From Escherichia coli phage NG_S8: DNA of 64,000 nucleotides. The stretch lies in the sequence record LC788711.1. One strand, written 5' to 3'. The translations under genes and the position numbers were made by a program. The notes under the pieces are model-generated. The model worked only from the letters and a program-made list of their open reading frames with translations, was not told where the DNA came from and searched no databases. Shown piece by piece: positions 13,479 through 20,141 of this stretch. Position 1 is the first letter of the stretch. Each line of letters opens with the position of its first letter.

Positions 13479-13512
13479 AGCCAGGTTGCTAGTCGACCTG
13501 GCTTTTATTTTA
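13479..13512 (+). terminator. putative intrinsic terminator after nrdD
   Basis: Short GC hairpin (CAGGT...ACCTG) followed by a T-rich tract. Confidence 0.4.
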
Positions 13513-14065: not shown

Positions 14066-14228
14066 TTTAGAAAATATGCTTATGGAGCAGTGGAATGCTG
14101 GGTATAATGCTGGAGTAGCTACCTGTATTGCTGGTTTGGATATGCTTATTAAGCAAGAGAAGGTTCGCCCAGAAGAAGCAATTCTGCTCCAAAATATCAT
14201 CGAAGGATTCAAGCAAGGAATCATATAA
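14034..14228 (+). CDS. hypothetical protein (start uncertain; the track begins this frame at 13950)
   Basis: ATG at 14034 (MDFLNQ...) gives a 64 aa product ending just before the Sir2-like gene; overlaps the previous ORF in another frame. Confidence 0.35.
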   Translation: MDFLNQNLKSNLENMLMEQWNAGYNAGVATCIAGLDMLIKQEKVRPEEAILLQNIIEGFKQGII

Positions 14229-15079
14229 TGCGTAGACTAATCGTTGTTAGTGGTGCAGGTTTGAGTGTAGATAGTGGTGTTCGTGCTTTCCGTACTGATA
14301 CTGCTAGTGGGAAATCCTTGTGGGATGAGTACGATCTAGAGGAAGTATGTAGCTTGCCTAACTTTGAAGCTGGCTTCCGTCGCTTCTGTGGTGAAGATGA
14401 TCCTAACTACTTCAGTGCTCGTTTCCCTGGCATTGATAAAGATGGTAACGATCTGTATCTCAAGACTCATGAGTTCTACAACATGCGTCGTCAGGAATTA
14501 CAGACTGTTGAGCCTAACATTGCCCATCTGCGAATTGCAGAATGGTTCCAGCGTTATGGTGCGGATAGCGTGAAGAACTTCACTACTAACGTTGATGACC
14601 TTCTGGAACGTGCTGGTATCCCTCGTGATGAAATCATTCACGCTCACGGGTACTTGAAAGAGGTGATCTATCGTCAGGGTCGCAACCAAATCATCGAAGA
14701 TGTTGGGTATACTGCGATTGCCCCTGAGGATTACGAATGGGTAAAACCAAACGTAACATTCTTTGGTGAGACGGCTCCGTGGTATATGGGTCAGATTAAC
14801 CTGTTTGATACACTTACTAGCAATGATATGGTTATTGTAGTAGGTTGTAGCAACCAAGTAATCGACTTCAACTGGGAGCTATTTCCTGCTGTATGTCGTG
14901 GAACTAAGATGATGGTTGTTAACCCACAAGTTCGTTATGACGAACAGCTTGAGTATGAGAAACGTGGTGTTACTGTATGGCGTGCTGGAGCTGCCGAAGT
15001 TTTTGGTAATAAACACTTTATTGATCAAGTTGAAGCTTTTATGGAGGGAAATATTTATGTCCCAGAAAAGCATGTGTGA
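14228..15079 (+). CDS. Sir2 (sirtuin)-like NAD-binding protein
   Basis: VVSGAGLSVDSGVRAFR (GAGIS..SGIP.FR), TTNVDDLLERAG (TQNIDGLHERAG), HAHG (catalytic His), VVGCS (VVGTS); no CxxC...CxxC zinc ribbon. Confidence 0.8.
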   Translation: MRRLIVVSGAGLSVDSGVRAFRTDTASGKSLWDEYDLEEVCSLPNFEAGFRRFCGEDDPNYFSARFPGIDKDGNDLYLKTHEFYNMRRQELQTVEPNIAHLRIAEWFQRYGADSVKNFTTNVDDLLERAGIPRDEIIHAHGYLKEVIYRQGRNQIIEDVGYTAIAPEDYEWVKPNVTFFGETAPWYMGQINLFDTLTSNDMVIVVGCSNQVIDFNWELFPAVCRGTKMMVVNPQVRYDEQLEYEKRGVTVWRAGAAEVFGNKHFIDQVEAFMEGNIYVPEKHV

Positions 15080-15239: not shown

Positions 15240-15405
15240 GGGTATCTGGAAAGGTCTAGTATGGTTTGTCAACCTAATCGGTATGATTACCATTTATTCT
15301 CTGTTCCTATCTGTTATGTGGGGTAAAGGTGAATTGAAGGTTCCAGTTCCTTTTACTGATGAAGTTAAAGTCTGGACGTGGGATGCTACTGGTGGAAATA
15401 AGTAA
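15220..15405 (+). CDS. small membrane protein
   Basis: ATG at 15220 after AGGAGGGAGA; 61 aa with one hydrophobic helix (GLVWFVNLIGMITIYSLFLSVMW). Confidence 0.45.
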   Translation: MVKKIFKGIWKGLVWFVNLIGMITIYSLFLSVMWGKGELKVPVPFTDEVKVWTWDATGGNK

Positions 15406-15899
15406 TACTCCTGTGATTTTCCTGGATATTGATGGGGTGCTCAATTCGAGCATCTCTCACCATCATGCTCCAGATAGTGAGAAGCTATTCTTTGGGGGTG
15501 ATTGGGTTTACAAGCCATTACTCCAGGCTTTTCAGAACTTTCTTGAGCCATCCCCAATAATGATTGTTGGGGTATCTTCATGGTTTTCTGTACGAAATGA
15601 AATGGAGAACGTTCAGATTATGACCGGACTCGGTTTGATCGATCGTTTTCTTGGTACAACAGATTTTACTGGAGGTGGTTTATCTCGGGGGTAATTCTGT
15701 TTTACGTTTTGTCGAAAAATATAAGCTCAAGCATTGGTGTGTCCTAGATGATGCTGGTGCTATGATGTATCAATTTCCTACTGTTATTGTAAACGGCAGG
15801 ACTGGAATAAACCTTCAAGATTTAAACGCTATCAGCTATATGCTGGAGTTTAGTCCAGATCTTGAAATGTGTAAGGCTCTTCAGAAACTTAAGGTATAA
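15359..15899 (+). pseudogene. HAD-superfamily phosphatase-like gene split by a frameshift at a G5 run (15687-15691)
   Basis: HAD motif I FLDIDGVLNS in frame A (15359-15694), motif-III-like VLDDAG in frame B (15651-15899); removing one G from GGGGG joins the frames into one ORF of about 180 aa. Confidence 0.5.
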
Positions 15900-15901
15900 G
15901 C

Positions 15902-16330
15902 ATGTTCAATAATATTTTCATGAAAGAGGTAAATCCTATGCTTCTCAACTTCTGGCGCTCTCTCCCTAATGGTATGTATAATGAAACCATCAATCTCCTT
16001 AAGATTTGGTGTGAGAATAACGATATCTTCCTGTCTTTTAAAGGCCCGCTAGAGGAAGCTCCGTGTATTGGAGTTAGTGTGGATTTAGGCGAGGGAGTAG
16101 AAGAGATTGTAGACTGGAAAGAACTTGATGAAATGGGTCTGGTTTTTGCCTTGAACCATAAGCTGTTTATGCCTGCAAATCACCGTCTTATTGTAAATTA
16201 TCGCACTGGTGAAGCTCCTGCTTTCCAGGTAAATGAACGTGAGGGCTGGTCATACTCGCCCGGGGAAGTAAATGAGGGGATTCAGAAACTTCGTCGTTTC
16301 GGGTATATGATCCCAGGTTTAACTGCTTAA
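15902..16330 (+). CDS. hypothetical protein, paralog A of a tandem pair
   Basis: 142 aa; C-terminal region aligns to the next ORF (W.EL..MGL..ALN...F.P......TGE.P...V.....W.Y...........L.R.G...PGL). Confidence 0.6.
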   Translation: MFNNIFMKEVNPMLLNFWRSLPNGMYNETINLLKIWCENNDIFLSFKGPLEEAPCIGVSVDLGEGVEEIVDWKELDEMGLVFALNHKLFMPANHRLIVNYRTGEAPAFQVNEREGWSYSPGEVNEGIQKLRRFGYMIPGLTA

Positions 16331-16339
16331 GGAGGCAGA

Positions 16340-16735
16340 ATGGAACAAGTATTTTGGCGTCAGATAGATCCTAGTTTGGTAGAGCGTGCTGAGGGGCTCC
16401 TTGCACGTTGGTTGGGGGTTGACAAGGTTAGTGTAACATTTCCGTTTACTTCTGTAACAGACCCTAGTGTAGGAGTCTTTGTGGATGAAGATGAAGATGA
16501 TGGTTGGGAAGCTGACTGGAATGAATTGTCCAGCATGGGCTTGATTGTTGCCCTCAACTTCTCTATATTCCATCCACGTGGCTTAGCCATTACACGTGAC
16601 CCCGAAACTGGTGAATCCCCTTATCTTTTGCAAGTAGAAGATGATATTTGGGAGTACACCGAAGATATTCTCGAAGAAGCTAAAGGTCACTTAAATCGCA
16701 TTGGGATCTATGTCCCAGGCCTAAATGATGATTGA
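16340..16735 (+). CDS. hypothetical protein, paralog B of a tandem pair
   Basis: 131 aa; shares the motif skeleton of the preceding ORF; GGAGGCAGA RBS before the ATG. Confidence 0.6.
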   Translation: MEQVFWRQIDPSLVERAEGLLARWLGVDKVSVTFPFTSVTDPSVGVFVDEDEDDGWEADWNELSSMGLIVALNFSIFHPRGLAITRDPETGESPYLLQVEDDIWEYTEDILEEAKGHLNRIGIYVPGLNDD

Positions 16736-16759
16736 TTTTCATTAGCCCAATCCTGATTA

Positions 16760-16786
16760 CCGAGTCATTTTGGCTCGGTTTTCTCT
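16760..16786 (+). terminator. intrinsic terminator
   Basis: Hairpin CCGAGTC-ATTTT-GGCTCGG followed by TTTTCTCT. Confidence 0.6.
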
Positions 16787-16826
16787 GTGCTCAAAGACAC
16801 TGATAGCACCTTCGGAAAAATTTTAC

Positions 16827-16855
16827 TTGCAGGATGCTCAAAATCTTGATATAAT
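16827..16855 (+). promoter_or_regulatory. early sigma70 promoter with conserved leader, about 500 nt upstream of the next start codon
   Basis: TTGCAG-17 bp-TATAAT then ATTTATATTGAATTGAGAGACATTAG, resembling the other early leaders. Confidence 0.55.
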
Positions 16856-17351
16856 ATTTATATTGAATTGAGAGACATTAGTAAAAATTGATTTTGCTAA
16901 TTTTTCTTGTTTACAATCCGCAATACGGAACAGTTAGGCTGCCCCATTAAGGGTTGTTTTAACTATTACTAGTGTTTATACTGCATTAGTTAATTATCAA
17001 TTAAGTGATCTGCGTACCCTGAATTCGGAAAGGTAAATCCAAACCGTGCATATTTAGCTCGTTATATAGGCAGAGCTTTATATGGGGGTGCGAACGAAAA
17101 GAGCAGCGAATGGTGACACGTCCAGTAGCCACCTACCAATAGGATAGTGAGGGCAATCAGAATCGGCTTAGCGGCCAATGACCTAGGTTCTGATCTGGAT
17201 AAGAGTTAAGAGAGCGCAGCACTGAGGTATGATAACTTATTCATACTGCTTGATGGTGATTAATGTTTGTGTAAATGGTAGTAATAGTTGTTCTATTCTT
17301 TTGAATAGTCCTAAAGAAAGATATCCGAATAACCAACATAGGAGTATTGTT

Positions 17352-20141
17352 GTGTTCTCAATCCTACAAGGTCACGCAGGATTTTCCAGAGATAAAGCCA
17401 CTGGCATCTGGAAAGAGATCAAAGTGGAAGATTACACCTTTGCAAAGCGATTCTCTAAAGAGCATCCAGAAGGTAAACCAGCTTCCATGCCCTTCAAATT
17501 TGATGTACTTGAAGAACTTGACCCGCAAAACCTTGCTGAAATGTTACCTATCATGCGTCGTCTTACCAAAGACCCGCATATTGTAGCTATTCGGGGTAAG
17601 TGTCTAGCTCCAAAAGATAATGTGCGTCGTACCAGAGGAAACTTTAACGTATCCAATCCTAGTCATATTATTGCTATGGACGTGGATGGTATTGTAGATA
17701 CTGGTGGCTATGACAAGTTTAATCTTGTTGGCATGGCACGTCATATTATTAAGATGTTGAATAGTATTAGTGAGGATATGTTTCCTCTTGATGCAGGGTT
17801 TATTGCCCATGCATCGTCTTCGGCTGGATTAAAACCAGGTATCCGAATGCACTTAATGCTAGAATCTAATGTCAAGGTAACGCAGGGACAGTTAAAGTTC
17901 TTATTTACATCTATCAATGATAGTAGTAAGCAAAAGTACGGCTTTGATATTGCTGACTTAGCTTATTATTCTTCTGTTCAGCTTCACTATTTCGCAGATC
18001 CCTTATTTGATGATGGTATAGTCGATCCGTTTAAAGCGGAGAATAAACCACGTCTTGTGTATGTTAAGGGTTCGAAGGTGAATCTACCTAATAACCTAGT
18101 TGACTTTGAAACAACTAGAGGTGAGTTTAAAGAAGAATTCTACTCCTTACTTGACCAAATTAAAGGCAAGAAGGCTGCATCTGATAAAGTGGAAGAAACC
18201 ATCAGCGAACTAGAAGAAGCTGAGGATGGGGTGTACCTGCGTATTATTCCAAAACTTTACCACAGAGCGTTAGAAGATGGTGTTGACTTTACATGGTTAG
18301 AACGTGAGATTAAACCAGCTTTATCTGAATATATTGCAACTAAAGATAATAGTCGTAATATTCAAGATTACTTTAATAACGGTCGTAAGCAGGCTCTCAA
18401 AGCCTTTGTAAATAACTCCAAACGTGAGATTCCACCAAACTTAAAAGGTGTACCATTAAAACGTCTAGACACAGATTCTCCACCAGAAGTTCCATACCTG
18501 AAAATTAACATTGTACCACCAAAAGGACATTTAACATTTGTTAAGGCAAGTCTTGGTACGGGTAAAACTACAGCAGTAACTAAGTGGCTAGATGCAGGTG
18601 TTCTTCCAGGAAACTTTATTGCAATCACAAATACTAGGGCACTTGTATCTTCTAACGCGAAGAAATTCGGTGCTGGTCAGTATGATAAGTCAGTTGATAT
18701 GCTGAACTTCAAACGTGGTGCCATTGATCGTATGTCTTCAACTATTCACTCTATCCATAAGTTCAAGAGCTTTGTGGGTCAGATTGATACGATCTTTATT
18801 GATGAATGTGACGCAGTAATGAATGATCTGTTATTCGCTCCGGTTGTTAAAAACCGTCGTGAATGTATTCAGGTTCTTCGTGATATCCTTATTACTGCTA
18901 AAACTGTTATCTTATCCGATGGTGATATCAGTGCAGAAACGATTGAAGCCTATGGTTCTTTGATTGATTTTGATAAACCAGTCGCATTTTATAATCACCA
19001 CCGTAAAATGCTGGCGAAAGCTCATGCTTATGAATTCCCTGATGAATCCAGTATTTGGGTTGCACTTCAAACATCTTTAGAGATGGGGGAGAAATCAATC
19101 CTAGTATCTGACTGTGGCCCGGATGAACTGAATGAGAAGGGAATGGCATTACGTCGTAATACTGGTGCGTTAGTTAAAGAAATTCACTCAAACTCTACGT
19201 CTGATGTAGATATCCGACGTATTCTGGATTATACAACTAATGAGCTAATTGATCAACAGATTGATTGTTTATTATGTAGTCCATCTGTAACGAGTGGTGT
19301 TGACTTTAACTATTTTGATAACGTATTCGTAATCACTAGAACCTCAAACCAAGCGCCAAACATGCGTTTTCAAGCAATCAGGCGCGACCGTGGTGCTCAG
19401 AACATTTATTATTTTATTGATAAATCTACGAGTGGATTTTCTGCGGGTTCCGAGCAATATAATATTGACGAAGGTTGGATTGAGTTAGCCCAACAACTGT
19501 ACGCACGTCGTCGTGAGCTGGAATCTAGAAACTATACTAGTACTTTGCGTTATTATCTGCTTGATCAGGGTGCAACTATCGATATTTTCAGCGAAAGCTG
19601 GGGAACTATCGAAGGTGCAGGCAAAGAGTATACAGAAGAGCGAATCAAAGCTATTTTGCACTCAACTCCTGAATATTGTGCACCACGTCATGCAGATGCC
19701 TATGAAGCCAAGTTACTTCTGGTTCGCTATTATCATCTGGATTCTATTAAAGATGTAACAGTGGAACACGTTGAACAGTATATCAAGGATAAACCAAACG
19801 ATAGAGCTGCATTCTTCCATAAGATGCACGACATGTTCTGGGAAGATATTAAAAAGTGTTCAAACGTAACAATCAAACCGTTTATCGAAGCTCTTAAGAA
19901 TAAGAAGAAGGATTTCTTCCTTAAGACAGGTCAGAGCGCTAACCCAAAATATGCTCGTATGTATCTTGGCATGATGGGTATCGGTAAAGATCTGGATACG
20001 GAAAAGATTGTGGACTGGTACAGAACTTACTGTAAGATCGAATGTATGCCGATTCCAGTTAAGTTTATGACAGATGAAGAACGTCAGATGCATGAGGAAG
20101 CTCTTGCTGAATTGGGGGCTAGAAATGACAGCGAAGAATAA
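17352..20141 (+). CDS. SF2-type helicase, replication-origin-binding-protein-like
   Basis: Walker A SLGTGKTT, Walker B IFIDECDAV, helicase motif SPSVTSGVDFN; probable GTG start at 17352 preceded by TAGGAG; the track ORF extends upstream to 17229. Confidence 0.8.
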   Translation: MFSILQGHAGFSRDKATGIWKEIKVEDYTFAKRFSKEHPEGKPASMPFKFDVLEELDPQNLAEMLPIMRRLTKDPHIVAIRGKCLAPKDNVRRTRGNFNVSNPSHIIAMDVDGIVDTGGYDKFNLVGMARHIIKMLNSISEDMFPLDAGFIAHASSSAGLKPGIRMHLMLESNVKVTQGQLKFLFTSINDSSKQKYGFDIADLAYYSSVQLHYFADPLFDDGIVDPFKAENKPRLVYVKGSKVNLPNNLVDFETTRGEFKEEFYSLLDQIKGKKAASDKVEETISELEEAEDGVYLRIIPKLYHRALEDGVDFTWLEREIKPALSEYIATKDNSRNIQDYFNNGRKQALKAFVNNSKREIPPNLKGVPLKRLDTDSPPEVPYLKINIVPPKGHLTFVKASLGTGKTTAVTKWLDAGVLPGNFIAITNTRALVSSNAKKFGAGQYDKSVDMLNFKRGAIDRMSSTIHSIHKFKSFVGQIDTIFIDECDAVMNDLLFAPVVKNRRECIQVLRDILITAKTVILSDGDISAETIEAYGSLIDFDKPVAFYNHHRKMLAKAHAYEFPDESSIWVALQTSLEMGEKSILVSDCGPDELNEKGMALRRNTGALVKEIHSNSTSDVDIRRILDYTTNELIDQQIDCLLCSPSVTSGVDFNYFDNVFVITRTSNQAPNMRFQAIRRDRGAQNIYYFIDKSTSGFSAGSEQYNIDEGWIELAQQLYARRRELESRNYTSTLRYYLLDQGATIDIFSESWGTIEGAGKEYTEERIKAILHSTPEYCAPRHADAYEAKLLLVRYYHLDSIKDVTVEHVEQYIKDKPNDRAAFFHKMHDMFWEDIKKCSNVTIKPFIEALKNKKKDFFLKTGQSANPKYARMYLGMMGIGKDLDTEKIVDWYRTYCKIECMPIPVKFMTDEERQMHEEALAELGARNDSEE

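What the first reader, a model, noticed from the sequence alone, without database searches (positions are those of the whole stretch)
15902..16735. Tandem pair of diverged paralogs of unknown function
The adjacent ORFs (142 and 131 aa) share a clear C-terminal skeleton (ELxxMGLxxALNxxxFxPxxxxxxxxxTGExPxxxVxxxxWxYxxxxxxxxxxLxRxGxxxPGL) and have diverged N-termini. Tandem duplication followed by divergence in an early accessory region suggests arms-race genes or two specificities of one inhibitor fold. I recognise no characterised family.
Basis: seen in the sequence. Interest (0 to 1): 0.55.

Follow-up and report, generated by a model that had tools for sequence, protein, structure and literature searches.

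The report
Paired early phage DUF7415 genes
Two neighbouring early genes of a T5-like Salmonella phage are true ancient duplicates in a catalogued but uncharacterised phage protein family (DUF7415); they are conserved, not fast-evolving, and their function is still unknown.

Summary
ORF A (15902-16330, 142 aa) and ORF B (16340-16735, 131 aa) are paralogs: 31% identity over 124 ungapped residues, E=5e-20. The similarity covers nearly the whole length, so the N-termini are also homologous.

The window is an Epseptimavirus, 99.8% identical to Salmonella phage SH9. A and B are the orthologues of T5.106 and T5.107, the last two genes of an early operon ending in a terminator. Both belong to Pfam DUF7415 and PHROG 2502, which have no assigned function.

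The single module is common in T4-like, P2-like and other phages of Gammaproteobacteria. There it stands alone or is fused to nucleotide or nucleic-acid enzymes.

The pair sits at the same position in T5, Epseptimavirus and Klebsiella T5-like genomes. It is under purifying selection (dN/dS 0.10 and 0.23). That argues against an arms race. T5.107 was weakly 'Fit' in a published knock-down screen.

My best guess, at low confidence, is an acidic, non-enzymatic protein-binding heteromer acting in early DNA or nucleotide metabolism.

The parts
15902..16330 (+). ORF A, 142 aa, orthologue of T5.106. Acidic (pI 4.8, net charge -7). Two-module DUF7415 protein whose C-terminal module is degenerate.
   Evidence: ORF list. 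Pfam DUF7415 125.5 bits and PHROG 2502 E=5.7e-59. 73% identical to T5.106, dN/dS 0.10. AlphaFold pLDDT 87.6, residues 1-11 disordered. pI.
15944..16096 (+). N-terminal module of A (residues 15-65): strand, helix, two strands.
   Evidence: The N half alone scores 73.4 bits against Pfam DUF7415, covering model positions 1-52 of 53. Secondary structure E14-16, H25-37, E43-46, E55-63.
16106..16237 (+). C-terminal module of A (residues 69-112), degenerate. It keeps W, G-L, N, W and Y but has lost the family's H-P-x-G-L-A, R and S (it reads FMPANHR...GEAP).
   Evidence: The C half alone scores 56.5 bits against Pfam. It scores only 28.6 bits against an HMM built from stand-alone modules, against 73.4 bits for B. 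Motif comparison.
16330..16335 (+). Shine-Dalgarno AGGAGG for B. It overlaps the last base of A's TAA stop, and only 9 nt separate the two genes.
   Evidence: Read from the sequence. The spacing is the same in T5. The two genes overlap as ATGA in a Klebsiella T5-like phage.
16340..16735 (+). ORF B, 131 aa, orthologue of T5.107. Very acidic (pI 4.05, net charge -20). Two-module DUF7415 protein with a canonical C-terminal module.
   Evidence: ORF list. Pfam DUF7415 98.1 bits and PHROG 2502 E=6.6e-58. 68% identical to T5.107, dN/dS 0.23. AlphaFold pLDDT 89.7, pTM 0.83. T5.107 was called 'Fit' in CRISPRi-ART (PMC11879866, suppl. file 16).
16346..16492 (+). N-terminal module of B (residues 3-51).
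   Evidence: The N half alone scores 44.5 bits against Pfam DUF7415. An hhalign of the N-half profile against the stand-alone-module profile is colinear but weak (P=4.6e-4, probability 33%).
16514..16636 (+). C-terminal module of B (residues 59-99 and on to W104/Y106). This is the canonical DUF7415 core: DWNELSSMGLIVALNFSIFHPRGLAITRDPETGESPYLLQVEDDIWEY.
   Evidence: Pfam best stretch 59-99. 73.4 bits, E=4e-22, against an HMM built only from stand-alone modules of other phages. Family motif.
16759..16786 (+). Intrinsic-terminator-like hairpin (ACCGAGTCATTTTGGCTCGGT) plus a T-rich tail, ending the early operon right after B.
   Evidence: Terminator scan. T5 has an annotated terminator at the equivalent place after T5.107.

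Best explanation
Shown: A and B are the T5.106 and T5.107 orthologues of an SH9-like Epseptimavirus. They are ancient tandem paralogs of the uncharacterised DUF7415 family and the last two genes of the early operon that follows nrdD (small ORFs, Sir2-like, HAD-like, A, B, terminator). Each folds confidently into one compact alpha/beta unit. That unit looks like two copies of a roughly 55-residue strand-helix-strand-strand(-helix) module. Of the four modules in the pair, only B's C-terminal one keeps the family's invariant polar residues.

Inferred mechanism: the DUF7415 module is a small, acidic, non-enzymatic binding module. Stand-alone versions probably work as homo-oligomers. In T5-like phages the oligomer has become hard-wired as two covalently doubled, translationally coupled subunits. 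B carries the one functional binding site and A acts as a degenerate scaffolding partner. The complex would act early in infection by binding a protein of DNA replication or nucleotide metabolism, from the host or the phage. It would contribute to normal phage growth, not to a strain-specific counter-defence.
For: Identity and operon.

Fold: both models are confident and share one topology.

Two modules per protein: each half separately passes the Pfam DUF7415 threshold of 27 bits, scoring 44-73 bits. A profile-profile alignment of N halves against stand-alone modules is colinear, P=4.6e-4.

B canonical, A degenerate: 73.4 against 28.6 bits with an independent HMM; motif comparison.

B is the ancestral, indispensable copy: Pectobacterium phage My1 has only a B-like gene in the same slot.

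Coupled expression: a 9-nt gap with the Shine-Dalgarno over A's stop codon; ATGA overlap in a Klebsiella phage.

Not nucleic-acid binding by charge: the whole family is acidic, with pI 4.1-5.2 for two-module proteins and 92% of single modules below pI 6.

Link to DNA and nucleotide metabolism:
- Fusions to thymidylate kinase and to a dATP/dGTP pyrophosphohydrolase.
- Fusions to DUF3850/ASCH and to a DEDD 3'-5' exonuclease.
- Genes immediately flanking replication protein gpA in P2-like prophages.
- Genes next to ribonucleotide reductase, a UvsW-type helicase or a Nudix hydrolase.
- The T5-type pair lies just upstream of the origin-binding helicase gene.

Conserved, not accessory: B is present in 522 records and dN/dS is 0.10 and 0.23.

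Fitness: T5.107 is one of 17 'Fit' T5 genes in CRISPRi-ART, with fitness -2.90 and p=0.0215 (PMC11879866 supplements).
Against: No partner or A-B interaction was shown; I could not run a multimer prediction.

The link to replication and nucleotide genes may only reflect that early phage regions are full of such genes. The module also occurs as a moron between the late genes gpL and gpX of P2-like prophages and in long arrays of anonymous small ORFs.

Thirteen invariant positions, including N, H, R, S and D, in a 50-residue module would fit a ligand pocket as well as a protein interface.

The CRISPRi-ART signal is small and would not survive correction for about 160 tests. Known essential genes such as the D6 helicase and the primase scored 'Not Fit' in the same screen.

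Homology between N and C modules is weak outside Pfam's own model.

dS between the window and T5 is near saturation, so the dN/dS values are approximate.
Confidence: 0.33

Rival explanations
1. Counter-defence inhibitor or decoy. The acidic DUF7415 proteins would bind and block a host immune protein, for example a restriction or CRISPR-type effector, possibly as DNA mimics. Two copies would then cover two targets.
Confidence: 0.25
2. Small-molecule or nucleotide binding module, acting as a sensor or sponge. The invariant N, H, R, S and D residues would form a pocket for a nucleotide-like ligand. Fusion to enzymes would give them regulation or substrate capture. In the T5-type pair only B's C-terminal module would bind.
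Against: No Pfam, PADLOC, PDB or fold-search hit to any other family appeared; I ran no direct comparison with known sponge families. Strong acidity disfavours binding of polyanionic nucleotides.
Confidence: 0.15
3. The labels on some GenBank homologues are correct: A is an exonuclease and B is a tail tube protein.
For: Source names include 'exonuclease' and 'Phage exonuclease (ACLAME 70)' for A homologues and 'tail tube protein' for B homologues.
Against: No nuclease or tail domain appears in Pfam, PHROGs or NCBIfam. Fold searches give no such match. The genes sit in an early operon, not the late structural region. The 'exonuclease' label probably spread from rare fusions of DUF7415 to a DEDD exonuclease.
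Confidence: 0.02

Closest known systems
Pfam DUF7415 (PF24187) / PHROG 2502, including T5.106 and T5.107 of phage T5
   Same: Both window proteins pass the Pfam threshold by a wide margin and match PHROG 2502 end to end. They are 73% and 68% identical to T5.106 and T5.107, in the same operon position.
   Different: Nothing differs in kind: the window genes are ordinary orthologues. The family has no assigned function or solved structure. The two-module, two-gene arrangement is specific to T5-like phages; most family members are single modules of 73-83 aa.
Single-module DUF7415 proteins of P2-like prophages and T4-like phages (next to gpA, DUF3850/Orf91-like, DUF5405/Orf83-like or Nudix genes)
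   Same: They share the core motif IDWNxxSxxGLIxRINxEILHPLGLAxxRxPxTGxSxGxLVxxDGxWEY with B's C-terminal module.
   Different: They have one module instead of two and occur as one gene instead of a pair. They are often fused to other domains. P2 itself (right-hand 7.6 kb) and the first 50 kb of T4 lack the module.
Anti-CRISPR AcrIC4 (PDB 8dfo chain M)
   Different: The score is below the usual significance level. There is no sequence-profile match and Foldseek does not list it. Binding of Cascade was not tested and there is no reason to assume it.
Acidic phage DNA-mimic or protein-decoy inhibitors such as T7 Ocr (comparison from general knowledge only)
   Same: B is early, small and strongly acidic (net charge -20 over 131 residues).
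   Different: No sequence or fold similarity was found. The family conserves a buried-looking polar motif, not surface charge patterns. The acidic inter-module loop of B varies in length and sequence among orthologues.

Membership tests
Pfam DUF7415 (PF24187) | Score above the curated gathering threshold of 27 bits | tested here: met
   A scores 125.5 bits and B 98.1 bits. The halves score separately: A-N 73.4, A-C 56.5, B-N 44.5, B-C 57.7 bits.
Pfam DUF7415 (PF24187) | Canonical core motif (W-N..S..G-L..I-N..H-P-x-G-L-A..R..G-x-S..D-G-x-W-x-Y), judged with an HMM built only from stand-alone modules | tested here: met
   B's C-terminal module scores 73.4 bits, E=4e-22. A's C-terminal module scores only 28.6 bits and lacks H, G-L-A, R and S. 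N-terminal modules are not detected by this independent HMM.
PHROG 2502 | Full-length match to the family profile | tested here: met
   A matches with E=5.7e-59 (profile 2-134 of 134) and B with E=6.6e-58 (profile 4-134 of 134).
Internal tandem repeat (two DUF7415 modules per protein) | N and C halves are homologous by evidence independent of the Pfam model | tested here: inconclusive
   hhalign of N against C halves of the same proteins gives probability 5%. The stand-alone-module HMM scores N halves near 0 bits. The N-half profile against the stand-alone-module profile is colinear, P=4.6e-4, probability 33%. Both halves show the same strand-helix-strand-strand order in the models.
Anti-CRISPR AcrIC4-like | Significant structural or sequence similarity to AcrIC4 | tested here: not met
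Anti-CRISPR AcrIC4-like | Binds and inhibits type I-C Cascade | not testable with these tools
   This needs biochemical or plaque assays.
Exonuclease (label on some GenBank homologues of A) | A recognisable nuclease domain or catalytic motif | tested here: not met
   Only DUF7415 is found in Pfam, and nothing in NCBIfam. No nuclease appears among the fold matches.
Tail tube protein (label on some GenBank homologues of B) | Tail-tube fold or family match, and a location in the late structural module | tested here: not met
   No tail family appears in Pfam or PHROGs. The gene lies in the early operon between nrdD and the origin-binding helicase gene.
Known anti-phage defence or counter-defence models (PADLOC-DB) | A match to any model | tested here: not met
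   No families matched for either protein at E<=1.

The most novel reading that the evidence does not exclude
DUF7415 is a previously unrecognised fold and a portable binding module that many unrelated phages of Gammaproteobacteria use to engage one conserved cellular target or ligand. In T5-like phages it has evolved into a hard-wired pseudo-tetramer: two genes with two modules each and a single surviving active site in T5.107/ORF B. That complex would be needed for efficient infection. Identifying the target would reveal a new, widely shared step of host takeover or of coupling nucleotide supply to replication.
Probability: 0.15. Interest if true: 0.65.

Novelty: already known. Interest (0 to 1): 0.35.

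Why it matters
The genes themselves are not a discovery. They are 98-99% identical to deposited proteins and already sit in Pfam (DUF7415) and PHROGs (2502).

What may matter is the family. It is a strictly conserved roughly 50-residue module with no structural relatives among solved structures. It is spread over T5-like, T4-like, P2-like and other phages and is repeatedly fused to, or placed beside, nucleotide and replication enzymes. One member, T5.107, was flagged as contributing to T5 fitness. If that signal is real, this is one of the few conserved early T5 genes that affect fitness and have no known function. The degenerate/canonical pair A/B gives a clear experimental handle: mutate B's H78, R86 and S93, then test for an A-B complex.

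Tried and rejected
- PDB sequence searches with A, B and the module profile gave only noise (leucine-rich-repeat hits on a short N-terminal stretch of A) or nothing.
- Foldseek against the PDB found nothing below E=0.6. BFVD returned only DUF7415 proteins. The afdb50 library was not available.
- NCBIfam and PADLOC gave no hits.
- Large Ig-repeat and cadherin-like proteins in the exhaustive HMMER list match only profile positions ~89-119, many times each. The three I scanned (P0053, P0067, P0089) lack DUF7415 in Pfam, so I rejected this class as spurious.
- Simple BLAST of N against C halves shows no internal repeat. hhalign within the two-module set also fails.
- Literature searches for DUF7415, PF24187, T5.106/T5.107, the protein accessions and P2 orf91 found no functional study in main texts. 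Only the CRISPRi-ART supplements mention the genes.
- A conserved HAD-DUF7415 linkage was considered and dropped. The HAD-like gene matches only 3 Klebsiella records, is not annotated in the Klebsiella T5-like locus I inspected, and in two sampled Aeromonas phages overlaps the thymidylate synthase annotation.
- P2 Orf91 is DUF3850 only and has no DUF7415 module.

Full report
**What is there.** The window carries two adjacent + strand ORFs at the stated coordinates. A is 15902-16330 (142 aa) and B is 16340-16735 (131 aa). They are separated by 9 nt, and an AGGAGG Shine-Dalgarno (16330-16335) overlaps the last base of A's stop codon. BLASTP of A against B gives 31% identity over 124 ungapped residues, E=5e-20. 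The paralogy is therefore real and far beyond chance. The alignment starts at the FWR motif near both N-termini. In a joint alignment of both orthologue groups, W6, R7, L21 and W24 (B numbering) are invariant.

**Where it comes from.** The region is 99.8% identical to Salmonella phage SH9 (Epseptimavirus, Demerecviridae). In T5 the orthologues are T5.106 and T5.107. They are the last two genes of an early transcription unit that begins after the nrdD terminator. In the window that terminator is a hairpin at 13479-13503. The unit contains small ORFs, a Sir2-family gene (14228-15079), an HAD_SAK_2-like gene, then A and B. It ends in a terminator hairpin at 16759-16779. About 500 nt downstream starts the gene for the origin-binding, helicase-like protein, the T5.108 orthologue.

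**Family.** Both proteins match Pfam DUF7415 (125.5 and 98.1 bits against a threshold of 27) and PHROG 2502 end to end. Both families have unknown function. NCBIfam, PADLOC and PDB sequence searches give nothing meaningful. No paper in the library mentions DUF7415 or these genes in its main text.

**Structure.** AlphaFold2 models are confident: B has pLDDT 89.7 and pTM 0.83, and A has pLDDT 87.6 and pTM 0.82, with residues 1-11 of A disordered. The two models share the same order of secondary-structure elements, strand-helix-strand-strand followed by strand-helix-helix-strand-strand-helix.
- Foldseek against the PDB gives nothing below E=0.6.
- BFVD returns only other DUF7415 proteins.
- The afdb50 library was unavailable.

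The fold therefore has no significant solved relative at the sensitivity available.

**Module architecture.** Pfam reports two DUF7415 stretches in each protein. Submitted separately, every half passes the threshold: A-N 73.4, A-C 56.5, B-N 44.5 and B-C 57.7 bits. Independent tests of homology between N and C halves are weak.
- hhalign within the two-module set fails.
- An HMM built from stand-alone modules does not detect N halves.
- A profile of N halves aligns colinearly with the stand-alone-module profile at P=4.6e-4, probability 33%.

I regard an internal duplication as probable but unproven.

**The wider family.** An exhaustive HMMER search of 1.84 billion representatives found 163 hits at E<=1e-3. 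About 20 are two-module proteins like A and B. Most of the rest match only the C-terminal module. A profile search of the larger protein collection shows that the typical member is a stand-alone protein of 73-83 aa, always labelled hypothetical.

The core motif is IDWNxxSxxGLIxRINxEILHPLGLAxxRxPxTGxSxGxLVxxDGxWEY. Thirteen positions are invariant across 35 diverse fused members. B's C-terminal module keeps this motif and scores 73.4 bits against an HMM built without any T5-like sequence. A's C-terminal module has lost H, G-L-A, R and S and scores 28.6 bits. Of the four modules in the pair, only one is canonical.

**Distribution and copy number.**
- B is found at >=80% coverage in 522 phage records, with two places per record in the sampled T5-like genomes.
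- A Klebsiella T5-like phage has the same adjacent pair, overlapping as ATGA.
- Pectobacterium phage My1 (Mccorquodalevirinae) has only a B-like gene in the same slot. The A slot there holds an unrelated small, hydrophobic (apparently membrane) protein.

B is therefore the ancestral, always-retained copy and A is a derived duplicate. The window contains no further copies.

**Context of single modules elsewhere.**
- In T4-like phages, a gene of about 85 aa lies two genes downstream of a Nudix hydrolase gene, in an early cluster that also contains Acb1.
- In P2-like prophages, the module is fused to DUF5405 (Orf83-like) immediately upstream of replication gene A. It also forms 173-185-aa proteins immediately downstream of gpA, and it sits beside or is fused to DUF3850/ASCH (Orf91-like).
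- In P2-like prophages it also occurs as a 70-74-aa moron between gpL and gpX.
- Elsewhere it lies next to ribonucleotide reductase or a UvsW-type helicase.
- Other fusions are to thymidylate kinase, a dATP/dGTP pyrophosphohydrolase, a DEDD 3'-5' exonuclease, HTH_37 and Lar.
- In bacterial genomes it is found almost only in Gammaproteobacteria.
- P2 itself (right-hand 7.6 kb) and the first 50 kb of T4 lack it.

**Evolutionary mode.** Between the window and T5, dN/dS is 0.10 for A and 0.23 for B. The neighbouring Sir2 gene gives 0.24 and the origin-binding protein 0.05. dS is 0.8-1.8, close to saturation, so these values are approximate. Base composition is like the surroundings. Fixed synteny, presence in every T5-like genome sampled and purifying selection argue against the arms-race reading. 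The variable part of B is the acidic loop between the modules, which differs in length among orthologues.

**Physical properties.** B has pI 4.05 and net charge -20. A has pI 4.8. All two-module relatives have pI 4.2-5.2, and 92% of single modules are below pI 6. That disfavours direct nucleic-acid binding and fits protein binding.

**Experimental data.** In the CRISPRi-ART transcriptome-wide knock-down screen of T5 (PMC11879866), T5.107 is listed among 17 'Fit' genes and described as of entirely unknown function. T5.106 is 'Not Fit' (supplement files 1 and 16). The effect is small: -2.90 with p=0.0215, against about -3.3 to -4.5 for most genes and +2 to +4.5 for strong hits. Several known essential genes scored 'Not Fit'. 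This is a hint, not proof.

**Interpretation.** The descriptive part is solid. A and B are ancient tandem paralogs, members of DUF7415, early, conserved and acidic, with one canonical and three degenerate modules. For the mechanism I commit, at about one-in-three confidence, to a translationally coupled A-B heteromer. In that model B's C-terminal module is a non-enzymatic binding site for a protein of DNA or nucleotide metabolism, and the complex supports normal early infection.

The rivals are these.
- A counter-defence inhibitor or decoy (0.25). Acidity, early expression, moron-like spread, a Lar fusion and the weak AcrIC4 match favour it. Conservation and purifying selection count against it.
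- A nucleotide or small-molecule binding module (0.15). The invariant polar residues and the nucleotide-enzyme partners favour it. The acidity counts against it, and I could not inspect a pocket.
- The GenBank labels 'exonuclease' and 'tail tube protein' (0.02). No domain, fold or genomic-context evidence supports them.

**Novelty and score.** The genes are near-identical to deposited sequences and already catalogued in Pfam and PHROGs, so the finding itself is already known and ordinary. The residual interest lies in the uncharacterised, widespread, structurally unmatched module and the weak fitness signal for T5.107. I score interest at 0.35.

Noticed in passing
window 15359-15899 (G-run at 15687-15691): The HAD_SAK_2-like gene (T5.105 orthologue; a single 171-aa CDS in SH9) is split into two overlapping ORFs in the window. 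The cause is one extra G in a homopolymer: GGGGG here, GGGG in Sepoy and T5, and GAGG in SH9. It creates a TAA stop at 15692-15694. This is either a sequencing error or a recent pseudogene.
   Followed up: yes
window 15359-15899; L001 6084-6599; L005 2589-3095: RefSeq annotates this HAD-like gene as 'Sir2 (NAD-dependent deacetylase)', and PHROG 18062 carries the same label. Pfam instead finds HAD_SAK_2 (HAD domain of RNA-repair proteins) and no SIR2 domain. The real Sir2-family gene is the separate ORF at 14228-15079. The label looks like annotation spill-over from the neighbour.
   Followed up: partly
window 16736-17351: There is a non-coding gap of roughly 500-600 nt between B and the gene for the origin-binding helicase-like protein. 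It contains the terminator, promoter-like sites and a 21-nt inverted repeat pair (16961-16981 and 17269-17289, 81% complementary, 287 nt apart). The longest ORF starts at 17229, but the T5.108-equivalent start is at 17352. I did not test whether this region has origin or regulatory function.
   Followed up: partly
GenBank/RefSeq records listed: Homologues of B are labelled 'tail tube protein' and homologues of A 'exonuclease' or 'Phage exonuclease (ACLAME 70)' in several deposited genomes. Nothing here supports these names. The exonuclease label may come from rare DUF7415 fusions to a DEDD exonuclease.
   Followed up: yes
L117-L119 (Aeromonas P2-like prophages); L004 2728-3180 (phage vB_EcoM-12474III): DUF7415 and DUF3850/ASCH (P2 Orf91-like) are separate genes one gene apart, downstream of gpA, in Aeromonas prophages. 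They are fused into one 150-aa protein in an E. coli P2-like phage. This gene-fusion relationship suggests a functional link between the two domains.
   Followed up: partly
L024, L025, L029, L049, L057, L070 (IMG/VR P2-like contigs): Stand-alone DUF7415 genes of 69-74 aa are inserted between the late genes gpL (head completion) and gpX (tail protein X). P2 has no gene at that position, so these look like morons.
   Followed up: partly
P0053, P0067, P0086 and similar hits: Very large Ig-like or cadherin-repeat proteins match positions ~89-119 of the A/B profile many times each. The three I scanned (P0053, P0067, P0089) lack DUF7415 in Pfam. This is a spurious repeat-driven hit class to filter out in any census of the family.
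   Followed up: yes
L007 445-1068 (Klebsiella phage Matisse): The gene annotated 'RNA ligase' matches Pfam Acb1 (anti-CBASS 2H phosphodiesterase) at E=2e-47. It lies in the same early cluster as the T4-like DUF7415 gene.
   Followed up: partly
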